From: an uncultured Pseudomonadota bacterium
Lineage (GTDB): Bacteria; Myxococcota_A; Polyangia; Fen-1088
Direction: 5' to 3'
Assembly (NCBI GenBank): GCA_963831685.1
Contig: CAWHRJ010000004.1
Location: 64,812 to 128,811, forward strand
Length of the DNA stretch: 64,000 nucleotides
Within the stretch, counting starts at the first letter, position 1; every line of letters starts with the position of its first letter. The notes below the pieces were generated by a model. That model worked only from the letters and a program-made list of their open reading frames with translations. It was not told where the DNA came from and searched no databases. The position numbers and the translations under genes were made by a program. Of this stretch, positions 44,486 through 62,306 are shown piece after piece.

Positions 44486-45025
44486 TCATGGGCAGGGGGC
44501 GCCGCAGGTGGTGACGTCGCCGCTCGGACAGACGACGGGCACCCCCGCGGCACAATCGACGATATCGCAGCCTTCGGTGCCGGCGAGCGCGGCGGGGCAA
44601 TGGACGACGCAGGCGGCGCCGGCGGCGCAGCTGGTGTGGCAGGGCGACGCCGAACAGGTGAACGAGCAGCTGCTCCCCGCGCCGCAAACGCACTGGCCGT
44701 CGGCGCACGTGCCCGAGCAGCTGCTGTCGGGCTCGCAGGTCACGTGACAGGGGGGCGCCTTGCAGGTGAAGTCGCACGAGCTGCCGCCGCCGCAGGTGCA
44801 GGTCCCGTTCGCGCACACGGCCTGGCAGCTGCCGTTGTTCCCCTCGCAGGTCACGTGACAGGGGGGCGCGGTGCAGACGAATTGGCAGGCGTCGCCGGAC
44901 GGACAGGTGCAGGTTCCGCTGCGGCAACCGCCCGCGGGCCCGCAGGCGGTCAGACCGACGGCCAGCACCGCCGCCAGCACGGCGGCGACGCCAGCGCGCA
45001 GACACACTCGGATCGGAAGGGGCAT
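44486..45025 (-). CDS. extremely Cys-rich repeat lipoprotein
   Basis: Lipobox LTAC. Three roughly 38-aa repeats of the form C-x-C-x2-G-x2-C-x-F-x-C-x-A-P-P-C-H-V-T-C-E. About one residue in five of the mature protein is Cys. ATG 45025 is preferred over TTG 45031. Confidence 0.7.
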   Translation of the reverse strand: MPLPIRVCLRAGVAAVLAAVLAVGLTACGPAGGCRSGTCTCPSGDACQFVCTAPPCHVTCEGNNGSCQAVCANGTCTCGGGSSCDFTCKAPPCHVTCEPDSSCSGTCADGQCVCGAGSSCSFTCSASPCHTSCAAGAACVVHCPAALAGTEGCDIVDCAAGVPVVCPSGDVTTCGAPCP

Positions 45026-45061
45026 CGACAAGTCAGGCGCATTCTAGCCTCTCCGCCGGAA

Positions 45062-53626: not shown

Positions 53627-54292
53627 ATGGCTGCCGTTCGTCCACACAAAACCGTGCTCAGCGTCGTCCCGGGCGCCGAAGCGTCCCGGGCGGAACGCCG
53701 TCCGCGCCGCAGCGATGACGAGATCCTGGCGGGGCTCCGGCGCGGCGACCTCGAGGTGGCGGAGGACTTCTACTGGCGCGTCAAACCGGTCGTGGATCGG
53801 ACGGTTCGCCGGTTGATGGGGCGGATGGACAGCGACGGAGAGGATCTCATTCAGATTGCGCTCATCCAGCTCATCGAGTCGGTGGCCCATTACCGCGGCG
53901 AGTGTGCCCTCGATGCCTGGGTCTCCACCGTCTCGGCACACGTCGTCTACAAGCACATCCGCCGCCGGCGGCTGGAGCGGACAATCTTCGCCGCGGCGCT
54001 GGACGACGACGAAGAGATCGCGGTCAGCCCGAGGTCCAGCAGCGTCGACGCGATGTCGCTTCGCCGGGCGCTCGGGCAGGTCGCCGAGCATCTGTGCACG
54101 ATGCGGGAGGAGAGATCGTGGGCCTTCCTGTTGCACGACGTCTGTGGCTACTCCCTCGACGAGGTCGCGCACATCTGCGGGATCTCGGTCGTCGCCGCCC
54201 AGAGTCGGCTCGTCCGTGGGCGCCGCGAGATCCACGACCGGATCGCGGCTGATCCTCGCCTGGCGGAGATTCTCGATCGGGGTGAGCCGTGA
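53627..54292 (+). CDS. ECF-type RNA polymerase sigma-70 family factor
   Basis: Region 2 (DLIQIALIQLIESVAHY...LDAWVSTVSAHVVYKHIRRRR) and region 4 HTH (YSLDEVAHICGISVVAAQSRLVRGRREI). Confidence 0.85.
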   Translation: MAAVRPHKTVLSVVPGAEASRAERRPRRSDDEILAGLRRGDLEVAEDFYWRVKPVVDRTVRRLMGRMDSDGEDLIQIALIQLIESVAHYRGECALDAWVSTVSAHVVYKHIRRRRLERTIFAAALDDDEEIAVSPRSSSVDAMSLRRALGQVAEHLCTMREERSWAFLLHDVCGYSLDEVAHICGISVVAAQSRLVRGRREIHDRIAADPRLAEILDRGEP

Positions 54293-55293
54293 CCACGTTC
54301 CGCTACGCCGAGCGCGCGGCCCGACTGCTCCGTGCGGCACGCGCGCGGATCCGGCCGCACCGGTCGGCGCCTCCCGAGAACGCCATCGCGGCCATCGCCG
54401 AGGCGATCGAGCGCACCGCCTCTCGGCAGCGGCGGCGGCGGGTGGCGACGGCGGCGGGGTTCGCGACCGCGATCCTGGGCGCCCTCGCGCTCGTGGCCGC
54501 CGCACCCTGGAGATCACCTGGAACTATCGCGCTCGTGCCGATGCGGGTGCCAGAGAACGTGCCGAGAGCGACGCTCGTGGCCGGCTCCGAGGTGCGCGCC
54601 ACGCTGGCGAGCGCGGACGGGCAGCTCCGGCCCCTCCCGGCCGGACACGCGTGGGTTTCGGACGAGCGGCTGCAGACCGACGCGCTGCCGGTCGCGCTGG
54701 CGGGTGAGGACGGTACGACGGTCGACCTCGAGCCGCGGTCCGACCTGAAGTTGTTGCGCGCCGACGCCGAGCAGTGGCTTCGCCTGGGACGCGGTGCTGT
54801 CGCCCTGCACGTCGCAAAGTTGAAAGCCGGGCAGCGCTTCGTCGTCTTGACACCCGACGCAGAGGTGGAGGTCCGCGGCACGCGCTTTCACGTGGCGCTC
54901 GCTTCACCCGACGAGAACTGCGGCCATGGCACGCCCACGCGCGTCGTCGTGGACGAAGGCGTCGTCGTGGTCCGCTCGGCGGCGGGGGAGGTTCGCGTTC
55001 CCGCAGGACAACGCTGGCCGGCCGCCTGTCCGGCGCCGCCTGCGGCCGAACCGCCGCCCCCATCGGTCGCGATGAGGCGCCTGCCGAGACCCGTGCTGGC
55101 GACGCCTGCTTCGACCCTGGCGACGGAGAACGACCTTTTCGGTGCCGCTTTGAGAGCCGAGCGCTCCGGAGATCGGGCCGAGGCCGCTCACCTGCTCGAC
55201 GCCCTGCTGACGAGATTCCCTCAGACCCCACTCCGAGAGAGCGCGCAGCGTGCGCGGGCGCGCATGACGGCAACCACGCTGCCGTCGCGATAG
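54289..55293 (+). CDS. FecR-domain anti-sigma factor (single-pass)
   Basis: GTG overlaps the sigma stop (GTGA). One TM helix (AAGFATAILGALALVAAA). FecR-like beta region GQRFVVLTPDAEVEVRGTRFHV. Confidence 0.75.
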   Translation: MTTFRYAERAARLLRAARARIRPHRSAPPENAIAAIAEAIERTASRQRRRRVATAAGFATAILGALALVAAAPWRSPGTIALVPMRVPENVPRATLVAGSEVRATLASADGQLRPLPAGHAWVSDERLQTDALPVALAGEDGTTVDLEPRSDLKLLRADAEQWLRLGRGAVALHVAKLKAGQRFVVLTPDAEVEVRGTRFHVALASPDENCGHGTPTRVVVDEGVVVVRSAAGEVRVPAGQRWPAACPAPPAAEPPPPSVAMRRLPRPVLATPASTLATENDLFGAALRAERSGDRAEAAHLLDALLTRFPQTPLRESAQRARARMTATTLPSR

Positions 55294-55332: not shown

Positions 55333-56520
55333 GTGCCTCGCCGCTTCCGCCATTCGGTTCTGATAGTCATTGGTGTCTTCTCGGCCATCGCGCTGGCGCC
55401 TCGTCGTGCCCACGCCTACGCGTGGATGATCGGTCACGGTTACGCCGGCTGCGCGGGCTGTCACCTCGATCCGTCCGGCGCCGGCCTCTTGAACGAGTTC
55501 GGCCGAGAGGAGGCCGGCGACACCCTACGCTCCCGCTATGGCAGCGACCCGCCGCCGGTCGAGCCATTTTTCGGTCTCTGGAAGAATCCCGACTGGCTTC
55601 TCACCGGGGGAAGTTTTCGCGATGGGATCTTCTTCATGAAGGCAGGCGCAGCGCCCTACTCCCAGCAGAACATCTTGATGCAGGCCGACCTGCGGGTGGG
55701 CATCGACGCGGGCCGCTGGCGAGCCGCCGGAACTCTCGGCGTCCTGCCGAACGGAGACTTCCCAGCGGCGGTGGTGACGTCCAGCGGCGGCCCCAGCCTG
55801 GTGGCGCGGGAGTATTGGGTCGGCTACACGTTCGAGAATGACGCCATCTTGCTGCGTGCCGGCCGGATCAACGTGCCCTACGGCATACGATCGATCGAGC
55901 ACACGCTGTTCGTGCGGCAGGCGACGCAGACCGATATCAACGACACGCAAGAACACGGGATAGCCCTGTCTTTGCGATGGAGCGGACTCCGTGGCGAGCT
56001 CATGGCCATCGCCGGCAACTATCAGGAGTCTCCCGATGCCTACCGCCAGCGCGGCTACAGCGGGTACCTGGAATGGAGCCCGCAAGGCCGCTACGCCTTC
56101 GGCGTCAACAGCCTGGTGACCTACGCCAAACAGGACGTCTCCCTTGGGGTCGCCAATCTTCGCCAGGCTCACGGTCTGACGGTGCGGGCGTCGCCGGTCG
56201 AGAGGCTGGTCTTGCTCGGCGAGGCCGACTACGTGGCAGAAGGCTTGTCGGGCCAGCCGCACTGGAATGGCCTGGCGACGATGCTGCAGGCAGACTTCGA
56301 GCCCTGGCAAGGGTTACATTTCATCGGCACGGGCGAGACCTACGGCTCGGGGCAGCCCACGACCGAAACCTCCTGGAGCGTGTGGGGGAGCGTGGCGTGG
56401 TTCTTCTACTCGCACGTCGATGTTCGGTTCGACTACGTCCATCAGAGTCTCTCCACGCCTCCCCCCGAGGGGCGCATTCCAATCGAGACATACTTGGTCC
56501 AGCTCCATCTCTTCTTGTGA
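55333..56520 (+). CDS. outer-membrane beta-barrel-like protein with N-terminal CxxCH motif (paralog of 13082-14251)
   Basis: Signal peptide ending AHA, then CAGCHLDPSGAGLLNEFGREEAGDT. Shares MQAD, LRAGRINVPYGIRSIEH and LLGEAD with the paralog. Terminal VQLHLFL. Confidence 0.7.
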   Translation: MPRRFRHSVLIVIGVFSAIALAPRRAHAYAWMIGHGYAGCAGCHLDPSGAGLLNEFGREEAGDTLRSRYGSDPPPVEPFFGLWKNPDWLLTGGSFRDGIFFMKAGAAPYSQQNILMQADLRVGIDAGRWRAAGTLGVLPNGDFPAAVVTSSGGPSLVAREYWVGYTFENDAILLRAGRINVPYGIRSIEHTLFVRQATQTDINDTQEHGIALSLRWSGLRGELMAIAGNYQESPDAYRQRGYSGYLEWSPQGRYAFGVNSLVTYAKQDVSLGVANLRQAHGLTVRASPVERLVLLGEADYVAEGLSGQPHWNGLATMLQADFEPWQGLHFIGTGETYGSGQPTTETSWSVWGSVAWFFYSHVDVRFDYVHQSLSTPPPEGRIPIETYLVQLHLFL

Positions 56521-58416: not shown

Positions 58417-59859
58417 ATGGTTCCGCACAGTCCAGGTTCCTTCCGGCGGTGTCGCTGGGCTGCGGCGATGGCGCTGCTGTTCGTGTCCGCGCGTGCCGAG
58501 GCCGCGGGCAAGCGGATCGGCGTTCCCGAGTTCGAGGGGCCGCACGAGGCGGAGGTTCGCATGAAGGTGATGCAACTGCTCCAGGCGCACGGCTTCGAAC
58601 CGGTTCGCTCTCGCGAGATGCAGGAGGCGATGCTTCTCACCGGCGCCACCCTCGACTCGGACGACGACCTGAAGACGCTGGCCAAGGAGCTGGGGCTCTC
58701 GGCGATCGTGACCGGCGAGGTGGGACCCAGGCGGGCGAAGATCGTCGTCCACGATGGCGGCGAGGGGTCGATCCTGGGTGACGCCTCGTTCAGCGGCGCC
58801 AACTCACGCGAGCTGGTGGATCAGGTGGGGCTCACCTTCTGGAAGAGGCTCGGCGCCGACGTGGAACGCGGGCACTTGCCTGCCGGCGCGGGCGGCGAAA
58901 AGGGCAAGGCCGACTCCGACGAGGCTCCGCCGCCCAGGAACACGAAGAAGAGACGGAGATTCAGGATGGAGGAGGCGCCGCCCGAAGAGACGGCCGCGCG
59001 CCCCGTTCCGCCGGGGGACCCCTGGCTCGACTTCGAGCTGGGCCTGGGCGGGTTGAATCGCAGCCTGACGTTCACTCAGAGCGCCGCCGCGCAAGGCCCC
59101 GTCCCCTTGCGCCCCTACACTCTGGGCTTCGGGCCGATCGCCATCGCGAAGCTGGTGCTGTTCCCCTGGATGGCTGGAAAGGTCGGCAATTTCGGGCTGG
59201 AGGCCGAGATCGAGCAGGGGCTCGGGATCTCGACGCCGTCGAGCGGCGGGAGCTTCAGCAACACCGTGCACGAGTACGCCGGAGGTTTCCGGTACCGCGT
59301 GCCGTTCGCGACCACCGACGACGTCTTCTTTTCGCTGGGGCTCGGCGAGGAAGCCTTCACCTTCAACGGTCCCAACCGATCGAGTCTGGCGACCCCCGAC
59401 ACCATCTACCATTACACGCGCCTTGGAACAGGGATGCATGTGACGATCTCCGACGGGATCGGCGTCTCGTTCGGCGGGGGCTACCGTTACATTTCCAACC
59501 GCGGCGGGTCTCAGATCTCGCAGGACTTCTTTCCGCACCTGACGGTGGCGGGCGCAGACGCCGACATCGTGGCCCGCTACGCTCTCAGCGGGATGTTCGA
59601 AGTGCGCGCTGGACTGCAGTGGCGCCGCTATTGGTACGCCCCGCATTCGCAACCGGGAGACCTGGTCATGGCCGACGGCGCGGTCGATCAGTCGTTCGCC
59701 TTCACCGTGGGCATCGCCGTTCTGCTCGGCGTCAGCAGCGCTCCCAAAGCCGCAGGGGGCGCCGAGGCCCCGCCTCCGCCACCGCCCCCCAAGCCGAACG
59801 CCCATTCGCCGGAGCAGCCGTCCGATGACGACGCCAGCAGTGGACCAGATAGCGACTGA
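58417..59859 (+). CDS. hypothetical secreted/outer-membrane protein
   Basis: Signal peptide (AAMALLFVSARAEA). N-terminal alpha/beta domain (KRIGVPEFEGP...), a Lys/Glu/Pro-rich spacer, a beta-rich C-terminal half, and a Pro-rich acidic tail. Start chosen at ATG 58417, beyond the Rieske gene. Confidence 0.6.
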   Translation: MVPHSPGSFRRCRWAAAMALLFVSARAEAAGKRIGVPEFEGPHEAEVRMKVMQLLQAHGFEPVRSREMQEAMLLTGATLDSDDDLKTLAKELGLSAIVTGEVGPRRAKIVVHDGGEGSILGDASFSGANSRELVDQVGLTFWKRLGADVERGHLPAGAGGEKGKADSDEAPPPRNTKKRRRFRMEEAPPEETAARPVPPGDPWLDFELGLGGLNRSLTFTQSAAAQGPVPLRPYTLGFGPIAIAKLVLFPWMAGKVGNFGLEAEIEQGLGISTPSSGGSFSNTVHEYAGGFRYRVPFATTDDVFFSLGLGEEAFTFNGPNRSSLATPDTIYHYTRLGTGMHVTISDGIGVSFGGGYRYISNRGGSQISQDFFPHLTVAGADADIVARYALSGMFEVRAGLQWRRYWYAPHSQPGDLVMADGAVDQSFAFTVGIAVLLGVSSAPKAAGGAEAPPPPPPPKPNAHSPEQPSDDDASSGPDSD

Positions 59860-59862
59860 GAT

Positions 59863-60099
59863 GTGCCACTGCGTGAAGTTCCACGACCCGCACATCCTCG
59901 CGTCGCTCCCCGCAGCGACGCCCTGATCCTGGTCACCTGCTTCGTCTTGACGGTGGTTTTCGACATGGTCGTCGCGGTCTCGGTGGGTGTCGTTCTCGCC
60001 GCCCTCCTGTTCGCGCGGCGGATGGCGGAGCTCACGCACGCCCGGTTGACTGGGGACGCGGAGCGGGGCGGGACACCGACGAAGATTCCGGCGGTCTGA
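59863..60099 (+). pseudogene. relic of a SulP-family anion transporter (last TM helices only)
   Basis: PRSDALILVTCFVLTVVFDMVVAVSVGVVLAALLFARRMAELT matches the conserved segment that precedes the STAS domain in SulP transporters. The roughly 430 upstream residues and the STAS domain are absent. Confidence 0.55.
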
Positions 60100-60389
60100 T
60101 CGAGCGCGCGGGACTGGAGAAACGAGGCTGGCGACTCGCGGTCCGTCCGGACCTTGCGTCGGCTCTCGACGCCGGCAGGCAACTGGTCAGCGGGTCGACT
60201 CCGTCGCATTCCTGACTCGTCAGCGCGCCCGCGTCGCGTCGCGGGCCGCCCGAAAAGCGGCGCGGCGCGCGTCAGAGATCCGCCGCCCGAGCTGACGGCC
60301 GCGCGCGGCACCCCGACGCGCTCACCGACGCCCCGATCTGCGCCGAGGTCGTTGTTTGGCGCCAACTATTTTCGCTCATCCTCCACCCG

Positions 60390-62306
60390 ATGGCGCCGAT
60401 GAGATCTGATATGAGGATCGTGTCCGTCCGGCGCGCGTCGTTGGTGTCGGGTTCCGTCATCGCGGGGCTCGCTCTGCTGGCGCTCGGATGCGACTTTCGC
60501 GCCGCGCAGTTCACCACCGAGGGACCCGGCGCGGGCGCCGCCGGCTCGACCGGCAGTCTGAAGCTCGGTACCGGCGGGAGCTCGACGAAGGGATCGGGCA
60601 GCGCCAGCGGGGCCGGATCGGTCGACGGCGGCGCGTCCGGTGCCGCGGGGCAGGGTGGCGCGGGGGCGACCGGTTGTCCCGCGCACTGTCCGAGCGGCCA
60701 GATCTGCCTGGGCGTGAGCTGTCAACCCGATCCCTGCCTCGCCGCCTCGGCGATGAGCTGCGCGTCGGGGACCACCTGCCGCGCCAGCTGCGTGGCGGTC
60801 GCCGACCGCTGCGCCGGCGTCACCTGCCCGCAAGGCGACACCTGCGTCGCCGGCTCCTGCGTCGCCGGCTGCTTCGCGCAGCCGTGCAACGGCGTCACCT
60901 GCCCGACGGGGCAGTACTGCAGCCCGGGGAGCGGCAAGTGCGTCCCGGTCAACGCTTGCGACGCCGCCTGCGGCGCCGGGATGGCCTGCAACCTCTCCTG
61001 CGTCGCCCCGAACCCGTGCGCAGGCGTCACCTGCGCCGCCAATCAGGTCTGCGCGGGCGGCAAATGCGTGGAGAACCTGTGCGCGGGCGTCACCTGTCCG
61101 ACCGGCAGCCTCTGCAGCAACGGGACCTGCCTGGACACTTGCAAGTGCAGCAGCAACTGCGGGACCGCCGGCAAGTGCGTGCAGGCCAGCTGCGTCTGCA
61201 CGCCGACCTGTCCCTCCGACGGAAGCCGGGCCGGGATGGACGACGGTTGCAGCGGCAAGTGCCCCTGCCCGACCGGCAGCACGCAGGCGACGAACGGTTG
61301 CTGCATGCCGAACTGCCCGGCCGACGGAAGCCGCGGCGACATGTCCGACGGGTGCGGCAAGACCTGCGCTTGCCCGAGCGGCGACGTCACCTACCAGGGC
61401 GCCTGCTGCAAGCCCAACTGCCCCAGCGACGGGAGCGAGGGCGGCAAGTCCGACGGCTGCGGCAACACCTGCAGCTGTGCCAAGGGGACGACGCTCTACA
61501 TGGGCGCCTGCTGCACCCCGAATTGCCCCACCGACGGGAGTCACGCCGGCATGTCCGACGGGTGCGGCAAGACCTGCGCCTGCCCGAGCGGCGACGTCAC
61601 CTACCAGGGCGCCTGCTGCAAGCCCAACTGCCCCAGCGACGGGAGCGAGGGCGGCAAGTCCGACGGCTGCGGCAACACCTGCAGCTGTGCCAAGGGGACG
61701 ACGCTCTACATGGGCGCCTGCTGCACCCCGAATTGCCCCACCGACGGCAGCCGCGGCGACATGTCCGACGGCTGCGGCAAGACGTGCGCCTGCCCGACCG
61801 GCGAGGTCACTTACAAGGCGGCCTGCTGTAAGCCCAACTGCCCCAGCGACGGGAGCGAGGGTGGCAAGTCCGACAGCTGCGGCGGGACGTGCGCCTGCCC
61901 GACCGGCGAGTCGATCTACAACGGCAGCTGCTGCAAGACGAACTGCCCGACTGACGGCAGCCGCGCCGGGATGTCGGACGGCTGCGGCAAGAGCTGCGCC
62001 TGCCCGACCGGCGAGACCTCCTACCAGAACGCCTGCTGCGAGCCCTACTGTCCCAGCGACGGGACCTGCGGCCAGAGCGACGGATGCGGCAGCACCTGCG
62101 GCTGCGCGGGCGGCGGCACCTGCAAGGTTGGCCTCTGCCCCGGCAAGACCTGCTCGCCCGCCTGCGGCTGCGGCGAGATCTGCAACAACGGACAGTGCCT
62201 GGGGATCATCTGCAGCCCGGACGTCGTCCAGTGCGGCTGCGGCTGTTGCAACCCCGGCGACAGCTGCGTGGCCGGACAGTGCATGCAGGGGATCAGCATC
62301 GGGTAG
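60390..62306 (+). CDS. large Cys-rich repeat lipoprotein (four GVTC-type modules + nine 35-aa CC-x-PNCP-x-DGS modules)
   Basis: Lipobox ALGC and a Gly/Ser linker. N-terminal C-x-GVTCP-x-G-x2-C-x2-G-x-C modules, then nine units CC.PNCP.DGS.G..SDGCG..C.C..G...Y.G. Confidence 0.8.
   Translation: MAPMRSDMRIVSVRRASLVSGSVIAGLALLALGCDFRAAQFTTEGPGAGAAGSTGSLKLGTGGSSTKGSGSASGAGSVDGGASGAAGQGGAGATGCPAHCPSGQICLGVSCQPDPCLAASAMSCASGTTCRASCVAVADRCAGVTCPQGDTCVAGSCVAGCFAQPCNGVTCPTGQYCSPGSGKCVPVNACDAACGAGMACNLSCVAPNPCAGVTCAANQVCAGGKCVENLCAGVTCPTGSLCSNGTCLDTCKCSSNCGTAGKCVQASCVCTPTCPSDGSRAGMDDGCSGKCPCPTGSTQATNGCCMPNCPADGSRGDMSDGCGKTCACPSGDVTYQGACCKPNCPSDGSEGGKSDGCGNTCSCAKGTTLYMGACCTPNCPTDGSHAGMSDGCGKTCACPSGDVTYQGACCKPNCPSDGSEGGKSDGCGNTCSCAKGTTLYMGACCTPNCPTDGSRGDMSDGCGKTCACPTGEVTYKAACCKPNCPSDGSEGGKSDSCGGTCACPTGESIYNGSCCKTNCPTDGSRAGMSDGCGKSCACPTGETSYQNACCEPYCPSDGTCGQSDGCGSTCGCAGGGTCKVGLCPGKTCSPACGCGEICNNGQCLGIICSPDVVQCGCGCCNPGDSCVAGQCMQGISIG
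61341..61747 (+). repeat. near-identical tandem duplication with 210-nt period inside the Cys-rich gene
   Basis: 61341-61537 equals 61551-61747 except for one mismatch (61370 t vs 61580 c). The stretch 61381-61537 is identical to 61591-61747. Confidence 0.9.

What the first reader, a model, noticed from the sequence alone, without database searches (positions are those of the whole stretch)
60390..62306. 638-aa lipoprotein built from two kinds of Cys-rich modules, including nine 35-aa CC-x-PNCP-x-DGS repeats
The N-terminal third has four C-x-GVTCP-x-G-x2-C-x2-G-x-C modules (follistatin-N/EGF-like spacing). The rest is nine tandem units CC.PNCP.DGS.G..SDGCG..C.C..G...Y.G, with 7 Cys per 35 aa. 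It does not match the 'Myxococcus cysteine-rich repeat' (C-G-D/N-G...E-x-C-D-D-G-N) that I know. It may be an undescribed extracellular repeat family involved in adhesion, metal binding or toxin scaffolding.
Basis: partly seen in the sequence, partly recalled or inferred. Interest (0 to 1): 0.65.

Follow-up and report, generated by a model that had tools for sequence, protein, structure and literature searches.

The report
Lipid-anchored disulfide-rich repeat rod protein
This is a real gene from an uncultured soil myxobacterium that encodes a membrane-tethered protein made almost wholly of small cysteine-stapled modules; its 35-residue repeat is in no curated family and is very rare, but it is a trimmed version of a commoner unnamed module, and its function is still unknown.

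Summary
ORF 60390..62306(+) encodes a 638-aa precursor with 103 Cys. It has a lipoprotein signal, a Gly/Ser/Ala tether, a Cys-rich N-domain with four GVTC modules, nine 35-aa units, and a Cys-rich C-terminal cap. Three corrections apply:
- Units carry 6 Cys, not 7.
- Units alternate as A/B types, giving a 70-aa (210-bp) super-period.
- The start codon conserved across orthologues is 60411.

A unit HMM finds only 11 of 1.84 billion representative proteins. Orthologues occur in 12 Polyangia/Myxococcota soil MAG species.

The unit is not an isolated invention. Profile-profile comparison (96% probability) and shared architecture show it derives from an 8-Cys 'C-x-C-x-P-x-C…CG-x-x-DGCGG-x-C' module. 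That module is also uncurated. The CC unit has lost one Cys pair.

Several results favour a fully disulfide-bonded, rod-like extracytoplasmic lipoprotein acting as a stalk or adhesin:
- Cys counts are even in all orthologues.
- dN/dS is 0.14-0.47.
- AlphaFold pLDDT is 77-85, with beta-hairpins bridging unit boundaries.

Fold matches to EGF, TNFR and furin-like arrays are weak. The specific function is not established. This is a new variant of a known kind, of moderate interest.

The parts
60345..60372 (+). Conserved upstream non-coding block GAGGTCGTTGTTTGGCGCCAACTATTTT. It contains the palindrome TTGGCGCCAA and ends about 39 nt before the conserved ATG. It is a candidate promoter or operator of this gene.
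   Evidence: The block is found with 0-7 substitutions at the same distance upstream of the orthologue in 10 of 13 loci. Within the fetched loci and the window it occurs only there. It has no Rfam match. It is not a sigma-70 consensus, and the -12 GC of a sigma-54 site is absent (read from the sequence).
60390..62306 (+). Longest ORF (638 aa plus stop) of the Cys-rich lipoprotein gene. The probable true start is the ATG at 60411 (631-aa precursor).
   Evidence: GC3 0.92; only the ATG equivalent to 60411 is in frame in L001 and L010. dN/dS is below 1 in every region.
60411..60491 (+). Signal peptide with lipobox (…LALLALG-C34). C34 is the predicted lipid-modified first residue of the mature protein.
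   Evidence: The sequence shows a positively charged n-region, a hydrophobic core and a small residue at -1. The Cys is invariant in the 18-sequence family alignment and present in all 8 intact orthologues.
60492..60674 (+). Low-complexity tether rich in Gly, Ser and Ala (aa 35-95).
   Evidence: This is the least conserved region: 41-65% identity and dN/dS 0.39-0.74. Its length and sequence vary across the family. It was not modelled.
60675..61193 (+). Conserved Cys-rich N-domain (aa 96-268). It holds about eight beta-hairpin modules of the C-x-x-G-x-C type, including the four GVTC(P/A) modules.
   Evidence: About 30 invariant Cys across 18-20 family members. AlphaFold pLDDT is about 90, with paired strands in each module. 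dN/dS is 0.14-0.26. No Pfam or NCBIfam hit. One module resembles the 27-aa toxin RhTx (2mva), E=0.011.
61194..61298 (+). First repeat unit (aa 269-303, preceded by C268). It has the ancestral C-x-C spacing instead of CC and carries 6 Cys.
   Evidence: It is 46-57% identical to the CC units.
61299..62033 (+). Seven canonical 35-aa CC units (aa 304-548) in the order A-B-A-B-A-B'-A'. Each reads CC-x-P-N-C-P-x-DGS-x-G-x-x-SDGCG-x-x-C-x-C-x-x-G-x-x-x-Y-x-G-x and has 6 Cys.
   Evidence: The exact 35-aa spacing and A/B order are conserved in orthologues. The three-unit AlphaFold model has pLDDT 85.4. The unit HMM finds 11 of 1.84e9 representative proteins.
62034..62135 (+). Terminal unit (aa 549-582, CCEPYCPSDGTCGQSDGCGSTCGCAGGGTCKVGL). 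It keeps the two Cys that the canonical units lack, giving 8 Cys. It is an intermediate between the CC type and the DGCGG type.
   Evidence: Cys spacing table. The same unit type ends the array in every orthologue.
62136..62303 (+). Conserved C-terminal cap (aa 583-638): C-x-x-x-x-C-x-P-x-CGCG-x-x-C-x-x-G-x-C…CGC-x-CC-x-x-G-x-x-C-x-x-G-x-C. Because the anchor is N-terminal, this is the distal end.
   Evidence: It aligns across the whole family. It is 74-89% identical to L001-L004, with dN/dS 0.23-0.33. pLDDT is 60-70. There is no Pfam or NCBIfam hit and no MYXO-CTERM tail (read from the sequence).

Best explanation
The gene encodes an exported lipoprotein of an uncultured Polyangia (Myxococcota) soil bacterium.

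**Proposed structure.** After signal peptidase II cleavage, the protein hangs from a lipidated Cys by a flexible Gly/Ser/Ala tether about 60 aa long. The other roughly 540 residues form a chain of small beta-hairpin modules, with all 102 remaining Cys paired in 51 disulfides. The chain has three parts:
1. A conserved N-domain.
2. A variable-length array of 35-aa units that serves as a stiff spacer. Successive units are locked together by a hairpin spanning each junction.
3. A conserved C-terminal cap at the far end.

**Proposed action.** It most likely works as a disulfide-stapled stalk or rod of the cell envelope or surface that presents or spaces a binding tip. It would resemble the Cys-rich stalk of TraA-type myxobacterial surface proteins, or eukaryotic EGF, laminin-EGF and TNFR arrays. 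The anchor is at the opposite (N-terminal) end, and there is no globular head.

**Shown.** The gene is real and under purifying selection. It carries an export/lipobox signal. The architecture and repeat anatomy are as described. The unit derives from the DGCGG-type module by loss of one Cys pair.

**Inferred.** Complete disulfide bonding, rod shape, final location (inner membrane, outer membrane or surface) and the stalk/adhesin role.
For: **Real, selected gene.**
- GC3 is 0.92 in frame.
- Orthologues of 62-93% identity occur in 12 MAG species.
- dN/dS is 0.14-0.47 in the Cys-rich regions, against 0.39-0.74 in the tether.

**Export.** The lipobox Cys is invariant.

**Disulfides rather than free thiols.**
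- Cys counts after the lipobox Cys are 102, 102, 102, 102, 102, 90, 90 and 84 in eight intact orthologues. All are even, and they change in steps of 6 with unit number.
- Canonical units lack exactly two Cys of the 8-Cys parent module, at positions -4 and +14/+16 relative to the DGCG Asp. The terminal unit keeps both.

**Modular rod.**
- The AlphaFold model of the mature protein has pLDDT 77, about 90 in the N-domain. The three-unit model has pLDDT 85.4.
- One beta-hairpin (VTY-QG-ACC) spans every unit junction.
- The 35-aa spacing is essentially invariant in more than 50 orthologous units, while copy number varies (8, 6 or 5).

**Fold class.** The only fold neighbours are elongated disulfide-ladder ectodomains: Pvs25/Pfs28 EGF, TNFR1/OPG/HVEM CRDs, R-spondin furin-like repeats and CELSR1. 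All are weak.

**Stalk precedent.**
- The related modules sit between an anchor and other domains in other proteins: P0063 with FN3, P0051 with a pilin N-methylation motif, and MYXO-CTERM proteins.
- TraA's Cys-rich repeats were proposed to act as a rigid stalk (PMC3325183).
Against: - No experiment, and no informative genomic context. Neighbours are not conserved beyond the closest relatives.
- No recognisable ligand-binding or enzymatic domain, so 'stalk' leaves open what is being presented.
- No coordinates were available. Disulfide connectivity, straightness and length of the rod could not be read from the models.
- pTM is low (0.42), and the cap is modelled at pLDDT of only 60-70.
- The +2 residue after the lipidated Cys varies between Asp and Gly among orthologues, so the membrane of residence cannot be predicted.
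- Fold matches are all non-significant.
Confidence: 0.5

Rival explanations
1. Metal-binding or metal-buffering protein. The Cys thiolates, perhaps with the conserved Asp residues, bind Cu, Zn or Cd in the periplasm, like an exported metallothionein.
For: - The protein is 16% Cys, with CC and C-x-C motifs.
- Second-tier relatives that share the GVTC modules often carry the PF11617 'Cu-binding_MopE' motif.
- Conserved D-G-S … S-D-G pairs in every unit could also bind Ca2+ (read from the sequence).
Against: - PF11617 itself is absent from this protein.
- The protein is exported as a lipoprotein into an oxidising compartment.
- The Cys number is even in all 8 orthologues.
- Cys were lost as a pair.
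- Beta-hairpin modules are predicted confidently without metal.
- Known metallothioneins are small and cytosolic (established knowledge).
Confidence: 0.1
2. Multi-headed protease inhibitor or ligand decoy. Each small disulfide-rich unit presents a loop that blocks a protease or captures a protein ligand, as in Kazal, TIL or antistasin arrays or TNFR CRDs. This could protect the cell envelope of a predatory bacterium.
For: - The only Pfam similarity to the units, far below threshold, is to TIL and TILa (E 0.22 and 1.8).
- The weak fold neighbours include TNFR-type ligand-binding CRDs.
- The A and B unit types differ mainly in two loops, positions 12-15 and 26-33.
Against: - The similarities are not significant.
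- Units are near-identical within a protein and are being homogenised: units 2 and 4 are 100% identical in DNA. This does not fit heads of diversified specificity.
- No protease gene is a conserved neighbour.
Confidence: 0.1
3. Polyprotein precursor that is cut into many small knottin-like toxin or antimicrobial peptides.
For: - The protein carries tandem, near-identical Cys-rich units.
- One N-domain module resembles the 27-aa centipede toxin RhTx (2mva, E=0.011).
Against: - There are no dibasic or other recurring cleavage motifs between units (read from the sequence).
- The predicted beta-hairpin straddles each unit boundary, so cutting there would break a module.
- The protein is lipid-anchored.
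- The N-domain and cap, not the units, are the family-defining conserved parts.
Confidence: 0.05
4. Not a functional gene: a chance ORF in GC-rich repetitive DNA, an assembly artefact, or a decaying pseudogene.
For: - High-GC DNA gives long ORFs in other frames here (447 aa on the + strand, 653 aa antisense).
- Many public relatives are frameshifted: P0002, P0004, P0008, P0043, P0049, L005, L007, L008, L012 and L013.
- L012 is broken by two 1-nt insertions.
Against: - GC3 is 0.92 only in this frame.
- Eight intact orthologues have conserved Cys positions, and five of them have the same unit number as the window.
- dN/dS is well below 1.
- A conserved upstream element sits at a fixed distance.
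- The frameshifts sit in MAG assemblies and are as likely to be sequencing errors.
Confidence: 0.02

Closest known systems
Unnamed 'C-x-C-x-P-x-C … CG-x-x-DGCGG-x-C-x-G-x-C-x-x-G-x-x-C' module (8 Cys, about 37 aa). It is seen in distant members of the same lipoprotein family (P0003, P0005-7, P0009, P0011-17, P0019, P0020, P0023) and in unrelated architectures (P0063, P0051, P0053, P0040).
   Same: - It is homologous to the CC unit: hhalign probability 96.2%, E 2.3e-9.
- It occupies the same place between a homologous N-domain and C-cap.
- It shares the C-x-P-x-C-P, D-G-C-G and C-x-x-G elements.
- It also has no Pfam or NCBIfam model.
   Different: - The CC unit is 35 aa rather than about 37 aa.
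- It has CC instead of C-x-C, and C-x-C instead of C-x-G-x-C.
- It has lost the Cys pair at -4 and +14/+16.
- It has gained a conserved D-G-S and a conserved Tyr.
- The CC-unit HMM does not retrieve DGCGG-type proteins at E<=1e-3.
TraA-type myxobacterial Cys-rich tandem repeat (TIGR04201, Myxo_Cys_RPT, 22 aa). Also the GVTC-module stalks of MYXO-CTERM / MopE-related proteins.
   Same: - It comes from the same phylum.
- It consists of exported tandem small Cys-rich hairpin modules of the C-x-GV-x-C-x-x-G-x-x-C-x-x-G-x-C kind.
- A rigid-stalk role has been proposed for it (PMC3325183).
- Second-tier hits of the family profile are such proteins.
   Different: - TIGR04201 gives no hit on the window protein, and only 18.2 bits (cut-off 25) on homologue P0003.
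- Only the N-domain modules resemble it, not the 35-aa units.
- Those proteins have a globular N-terminal head and a C-terminal MYXO-CTERM anchor. This one has an N-terminal lipid anchor, no head and no MYXO-CTERM.
Eukaryotic disulfide-ladder ectodomain arrays: EGF and laminin-type EGF repeats (Pvs25/Pfs28, NELL, CELSR1), TNF-receptor Cys-rich domains, and furin-like repeats (R-spondin, EGFR/IGF1R).
   Same: - They are elongated chains of 35-45-aa modules.
- Each module is built on a beta-hairpin and 3-4 disulfides.
- They are the only fold neighbours returned.
   Different: - All matches are non-significant: best E 5.4e-4 at TM 0.09 for the full model, and E>=0.11 with TM<=0.38 for three units.
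- There are no Pfam EGF, FOLN, TNFR or furin-like hits.
- The Cys spacing is different.
RhTx, a 27-aa centipede toxin (PDB 2mva).
   Same: Local sequence match to N-domain module aa 164-185: PCNGVTCP-x-G-x-x-CS…C, with a four-Cys pattern.
   Different: E is only 0.011 against PDB and covers 22 residues. RhTx is a free peptide from an animal. This is a lead on the fold of one module, not evidence of homology or toxicity.

Membership tests
Bacterial lipoprotein (signal peptidase II substrate) | N-terminal signal with a basic n-region, a hydrophobic h-region and a lipobox ending in [GAS]-Cys | tested here: met
   MRIVSVRRASLVSGSVIAGLALLALG-C34. The Cys is invariant in 18 of 18 aligned family members, with a small residue at -1. 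The same holds in 8 orthologues. This is pattern-level only, because no dedicated predictor was available.
Bacterial lipoprotein (signal peptidase II substrate) | Actual lipidation and membrane localisation | not testable with these tools
   This needs globomycin sensitivity, palmitate labelling or fractionation. The +2 residue varies (Asp or Gly), so sorting cannot be inferred.
Polyangia tripartite Cys-rich lipoprotein family (unnamed; P0001, P0003, P0005-7, P0009-17, P0019, P0020, P0023, L001-L013) | Lipobox, then a conserved N-domain with about 30 invariant Cys, then an array of CC- or DGCGG-type units, then a conserved C-terminal CGCG…CGC-x-CC cap | tested here: met
   Alignments A1 and A2. 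E-values to members range from 1e-123 to 1e-22. The profile search recovers about 25 members among 5.8e9 proteins.
Myxococcus cysteine-rich repeat (TIGR02232-type, C-G-D/N-G…E-x-C-D-D-G-N) | Match to the TIGRFAM/NCBIfam repeat model, or presence of the CDDGN-type motif | tested here: not met
   No NCBIfam family matched at E<=10 for the whole protein or its three regions. The motif is not present in the sequence. I did not verify that this particular model is in the NCBIfam release used.
TIGR04201 Myxo_Cys_RPT (TraA Cys-rich repeat) | HMM score at or above 25 bits | tested here: not met
   No hit on the window protein or its N-domain. The homologue P0003 reaches only 18.2 bits, E 0.002.
EGF-like / follistatin-N domains (Pfam EGF clan, FOLN) | Pfam HMM match with the characteristic six-Cys spacing | tested here: not met
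   Zero Pfam families at E<=10 for the whole protein and the N-domain. Foldseek gives only weak EGF-array matches (prob <=0.28).
PF11617 Cu-binding_MopE / MopE-related proteins | Presence of the C-D-G-x-D-N-D-C-D-G-type metal-binding motif (Pfam hit) | tested here: not met
   The motif hits second-tier relatives P0018 and P0024 (27 bits) but not the window protein or true family members.
MYXO-CTERM surface proteins (TIGR03901) | C-terminal Cys-containing motif, then a TM helix and an Arg-rich tail | tested here: not met
   The C-terminus is …CVAGQCMQGISIG, with no hydrophobic helix or basic tail. There is no NCBIfam hit.
TIL / TILa trypsin-inhibitor-like Cys-rich domains | Pfam score at or above 24.5 bits (TIL) or 27 bits (TILa) | tested here: not met
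   Three CC units scored 12.1 bits (E 0.22) for TIL and 9.2 bits (E 1.8) for TILa.
Metallothionein-like metal-thiolate proteins | Reduced Cys clusters that coordinate metal, usually in small cytosolic proteins without aromatic residues | tested here: inconclusive
   Sequence features argue against membership: an export signal, even Cys counts in 8 of 8 orthologues, paired Cys loss, and a conserved Tyr in each unit. Metal content cannot be measured here.

The most novel reading that the evidence does not exclude
The CC unit, and its uncurated DGCGG-type parent, would define a new disulfide-rich fold class in bacteria. This family would be a 'headless' lipid-anchored rod of about 50 consecutive disulfides whose length is tuned by unit number (5-8 in different species). 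It could act as a molecular ruler or spacer of the myxobacterial envelope, or as a surface fibril whose conserved C-terminal cap recognises a specific target. The RGD tripeptides conserved in units 1 and 5 would then be candidate contact sites.
Probability: 0.15. Interest if true: 0.6.

Novelty: new variant of a known kind. Interest (0 to 1): 0.38.

Why it matters
Myxococcota genomes are full of Cys-rich secreted proteins, and very few have been studied. This case pins down a clean, very rare family: 11 representative proteins in 1.84 billion. It has a fixed three-part architecture and a measurable evolutionary step, the loss of one disulfide from an 8-Cys parent module.

It also shows that the parent DGCGG-type module has no model in Pfam or NCBIfam, even though it occurs in several unrelated surface-protein architectures. 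Defining these modules would improve annotation of many 'hypothetical proteins'.

A 35-aa, three-disulfide, junction-locked unit could also be a useful rigid building block. The biological pay-off is limited until a function is found, and the hosts are uncultured.

Tried and rejected
1. **Curated family searches.** Pfam and NCBIfam scans of the whole protein, of each region and of ten homologues gave no usable family.
2. **PDB sequence search.** It returned only a 22-residue match to the toxin RhTx, E 0.011.
3. **Foldseek.** Both AlphaFold models were searched against PDB, and the three-unit model also against BFVD. No match combined E<=1e-3 with a meaningful TM.
4. **Genomic context.**
   - The window neighbours are an unannotated secreted protein upstream and a convergent ABC-2 permease/ATPase downstream. 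They are shared only with the 93%-identical L012.
   - All-against-all clustering of neighbours in 13 loci, plus three distant loci, found no shared partner.
   - An operon-based functional inference was therefore dropped.
5. **Third large protein search.** A two-unit DGCGG profile returned only fragments of 138 aa or less and missed known members. The size of the parent superfamily therefore remains unmeasured.
6. **Literature search for 'DGCGG'.** It found nothing relevant.
7. **Upstream block as a promoter or RNA.**
   - Sigma-54 reading: the -24 TGGCGC fits but the -12 GC is missing.
   - Sigma-70 reading: no consensus.
   - Terminator-like hairpin flagged: not conserved in orthologues.
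   - Rfam: no hit.
8. **Possible SulP fragment.** The stretch 59851-60090 looked to me like the last helix of a SulP transporter. Pfam did not confirm this.
Full report

Yes. The ORF listing gives an ATG ORF at 60390..62306(+) of 638 aa. The product has 103 Cys (16%) and 113 Gly. The frame is the coding one. GC at codon positions 1/2/3 is 0.52/0.70/0.92, whereas the two other + frames have GC3 of 0.53 and 0.70. The long ORFs in other frames (447 aa on +, 653 aa antisense) are the usual by-product of about 70% GC DNA.

The four GVTC modules are at aa 143, 168, 212 and 233. CC-x-P-N-C-P units start at aa 304, 339, 374, 409, 444, 479 and 514, exactly 35 residues apart. They are preceded by a C-x-C variant (aa 268/269-303) and followed by a terminal variant at aa 549. 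Tandem Repeats Finder reports period 105 nt (8.3 copies, score 677) and, better, period 210 nt (3.9 copies, 85% matches, score 1085).

**2.

- A canonical unit has six Cys (positions 1, 2, 6, 19, 23, 25), not seven. The terminal unit has eight.
- Units alternate between type A (…SRGDMSDGCGKTCACPSGDVTYQGA) and type B (…SEGGKSDGCGNTCSCAKGTTLYMGA). A-A DNA identity is 81-90%, B-B is 78-100% and A-B is about 70%. Units 2 and 4 are identical over all 105 nt.
- The start codon shared with orthologues is the ATG at 60411 (MRIVSV…). In L001 and L010 the upstream ATG is out of frame. The mature protein is the same either way.

**3. Anatomy**

- Signal peptide with lipobox: …LALLALG-C34.
- Tether rich in Gly, Ser and Ala: aa 35-95.
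- Cys-rich N-domain: aa 96-268.
- Nine units: aa 268-582.
- C-terminal cap: aa 583-638.

In an 18-sequence family alignment, C34 and about 30 Cys of the N-domain are invariant, and the cap aligns throughout. The N-terminal third is therefore one conserved composite domain, not merely four free modules.

**4. Relatives**

A search of 5.8 billion clustered proteins with the single sequence found 42 hits. A search with the family profile found 154 hits at E<=1e-5. Only about 25 of these share the full architecture, and all are unnamed or 'hypothetical'.

The rest are MYXO-CTERM / MopE-related proteins that share only GVTC-type modules.

A scan of one genome per species (GTDB) found 13 loci. Twelve are labelled Polyangia, Myxococcales, Myxococcota or 'proteobacterium' soil MAGs, at 62-93% identity. 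The thirteenth, L013, is binned as Solirubrobacterales but shares neighbours with L004, L006 and L007.

Eight orthologues are intact. They carry 8, 8, 8, 8, 8, 6, 6 and 5 CC units, the same A/B order and the same 35-aa spacing. The single exception is one 33-aa unit in L003.

**5. Is the repeat a known family?**

No. Pfam and NCBIfam hmmscan found nothing at E<=10. This covers the whole protein, the N-domain, three units, the cap and ten homologues. The exceptions are:
- TIL at 12 bits (E 0.22) and TILa at 9 bits on the units.
- DUF7107 at 13 bits on two homologues.
- TIGR04201, the TraA Cys repeat, at 18.2 bits (cut-off 25) on homologue P0003.

PF11617 (MopE) hits only the second-tier proteins.

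An HMM of 22 CC units was run against 1.84 billion representative proteins. It found 11 proteins at E<=1e-3. All are fragments or members of this clade.

**6. The CC unit has a parent**

Distant members of the same family carry a 37-aa, 8-Cys unit in the same place: C-x-C-x-P-x-C-x(4-5)-CG-x-x-DGCGG-x-C-x-G-x-C-x-x-G-x-x-C.

Relative to the Asp of DGCG, the parent has Cys at -16, -14, -10, -4, +2, +6, +10 and +16. The CC unit has Cys at -16, -15, -11, +2, +6 and +8. The alignment of triple units shows that the Cys at -4 and at +14/+16 are the ones missing. The terminal unit of every orthologue still has both.

hhalign of the two unit profiles gives 96.2% probability, E 2.3e-9.

The parent module also occurs in other architectures:
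- P0063, with FN3 domains.
- P0051, behind a pilin N-methylation motif.
- P0053.
- P0040.

It too has no Pfam or NCBIfam model.

I could not measure how widespread it is. The remaining large search returned only short fragments.

**7. Selection and disulfides**

Against L001-L004, dN/dS by region is as follows:

| Region | dN/dS |
|---|---|
| N-domain | 0.14-0.26 |
| Units | 0.19-0.47 |
| Cap | 0.23-0.33 |
| Tether | 0.39-0.74 |

The number of Cys after the lipidated Cys is even in all eight intact orthologues (102 ×5, 90 ×2, 84). It changes by six per unit.

Even counts, loss of Cys as a pair and export into an oxidising compartment all point to complete disulfide pairing, which is 51 bonds in this protein. 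This is an inference, not a measurement.

**8. Structure**

AlphaFold2 of the mature protein with 20 family sequences gave mean pLDDT 77 and pTM 0.42. The N-domain is at about 90, the units at 66-84 and the cap at 60-70.

A three-unit segment with 27 unit-level sequences gave pLDDT 85.4. In both models each module contributes short paired strands. One hairpin (V-T-Y / Q-G / A-C-C) spans every unit junction, so units are interlocked rather than beads on a string.

Foldseek found no significant neighbour. The weak hits are all elongated disulfide-ladder ectodomains: Pvs25/Pfs28 and NELL EGF arrays, TNFR1/OPG/HVEM/CD40, R-spondin and receptor furin-like repeats, CELSR1 and megalin. TM is at most 0.38. 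BFVD gave nothing better.

**9. Context**

The gene stands alone. Upstream is an unannotated secreted protein, with 530 nt of spacer. Downstream is a convergent ABC-2 transporter. Only L012, at 93% identity, shares these neighbours. No neighbour is shared across the family.

A 28-nt block, GAGGTCGTTGTTTGGCGCCAACTATTTT at 60345-60372, is conserved. It contains the palindrome TTGGCGCCAA and sits at a fixed distance upstream in 10 of 13 loci, and nowhere else in the fetched DNA. It is probably the gene's promoter or operator. It fits neither the sigma-70 nor the sigma-54 consensus and has no Rfam match.

**10. Interpretation**

The best reading (confidence about 0.5) is an N-terminally lipid-anchored, fully disulfide-bonded, rod-like envelope or surface protein. 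The unit array would be a stiff spacer of adjustable length. The conserved N-domain and distal C-cap would be the functional ends.

The nearest functional analogy is the Cys-rich 'rigid stalk' proposed for TraA (PMC3325183), and eukaryotic EGF, LE and TNFR arrays. It is not a member of any of those families (see the membership tests).

The rivals are metal binding (0.10), a protease-inhibitor or decoy array (0.10), a peptide polyprotein (0.05) and a non-gene (0.02).

**11. Verdict**

This is a new variant of a known kind, namely bacterial extracellular Cys-rich tandem-repeat proteins. Interest is moderate.

Noticed in passing
window 60345-60372 (+); also L001 7939, L003 7953, L005 7936, L006 7951, L012 7953 and others: A conserved 28-nt non-coding block, GAGGTCGTTGTTTGGCGCCAACTTATTT, contains a perfect 10-bp palindrome TTGGCGCCAA. 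It ends about 39 nt before the conserved start codon of the gene in 10 of 13 orthologous loci. It is better conserved than the signal-peptide and tether coding sequence. It is a candidate promoter or operator of unknown type.
   Followed up: partly
window 44486-45031 (-): A second, unrelated Cys-rich putative lipoprotein of 181 aa with 17.7% Cys (…LTAC-GPAGG…). It is built from units of about 35 aa of the type G-x-C-x-C-x-x-G-x-x-C-x-F-x-C-x-A-P-P-C-H-V-T-C. GC3 is 0.89 and there is no Pfam hit.
   Followed up: partly
window aa 315-317 and 455-457 of the protein (nt 61332-61340 and 61752-61760): RGD tripeptides occur in A-type units 1 and 5 (…GSRGDMSDGCG…). The same units of orthologues L001, L002 and L003 also carry RGD, while L004 has RGG or RGN. 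The third residue lies at or next to the position of the Cys(-4) lost from the parent module. This may be coincidental.
   Followed up: no
L005, L007, L008, L012, L013; proteins P0002, P0004, P0008, P0043, P0049, P0128-P0131: A large share of public copies of this gene are frameshifted inside or near the repeat array. L012, which is 93% identical to the window, differs by two 1-nt insertions at positions equivalent to about 60907 and 61436. These could be long-read or MAG assembly errors, or real decay. They were not resolved.
   Followed up: partly
L013 (contig CAWCDS010000025.1): This locus is binned as 'Solirubrobacterales' (Actinomycetota). However, it carries a frameshifted copy of the gene and shares neighbouring gene clusters with the Polyangia-type loci L004, L006 and L007. 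The contig is probably mis-binned.
   Followed up: no
   Followed up: partly
window 53627-55293 (+) and 55333-56520 (+): A FecR-like anti-sigma gene (PF04773, E 3e-11) lies directly after a 221-aa ORF. That ORF may be its ECF sigma factor, but this was not checked. A weakly porin-like outer-membrane protein follows. No link to the Cys-rich gene was found.
   Followed up: no
P0002, P0004 (C-terminal parts) and L009 4202-5890: In three contigs the family gene is followed by the same lipoprotein gene (…CTDFPTSPVI…GPCITEPEDGTLLPNNWLRPR…). This neighbour is absent from the window and from the other loci.
   Followed up: partly
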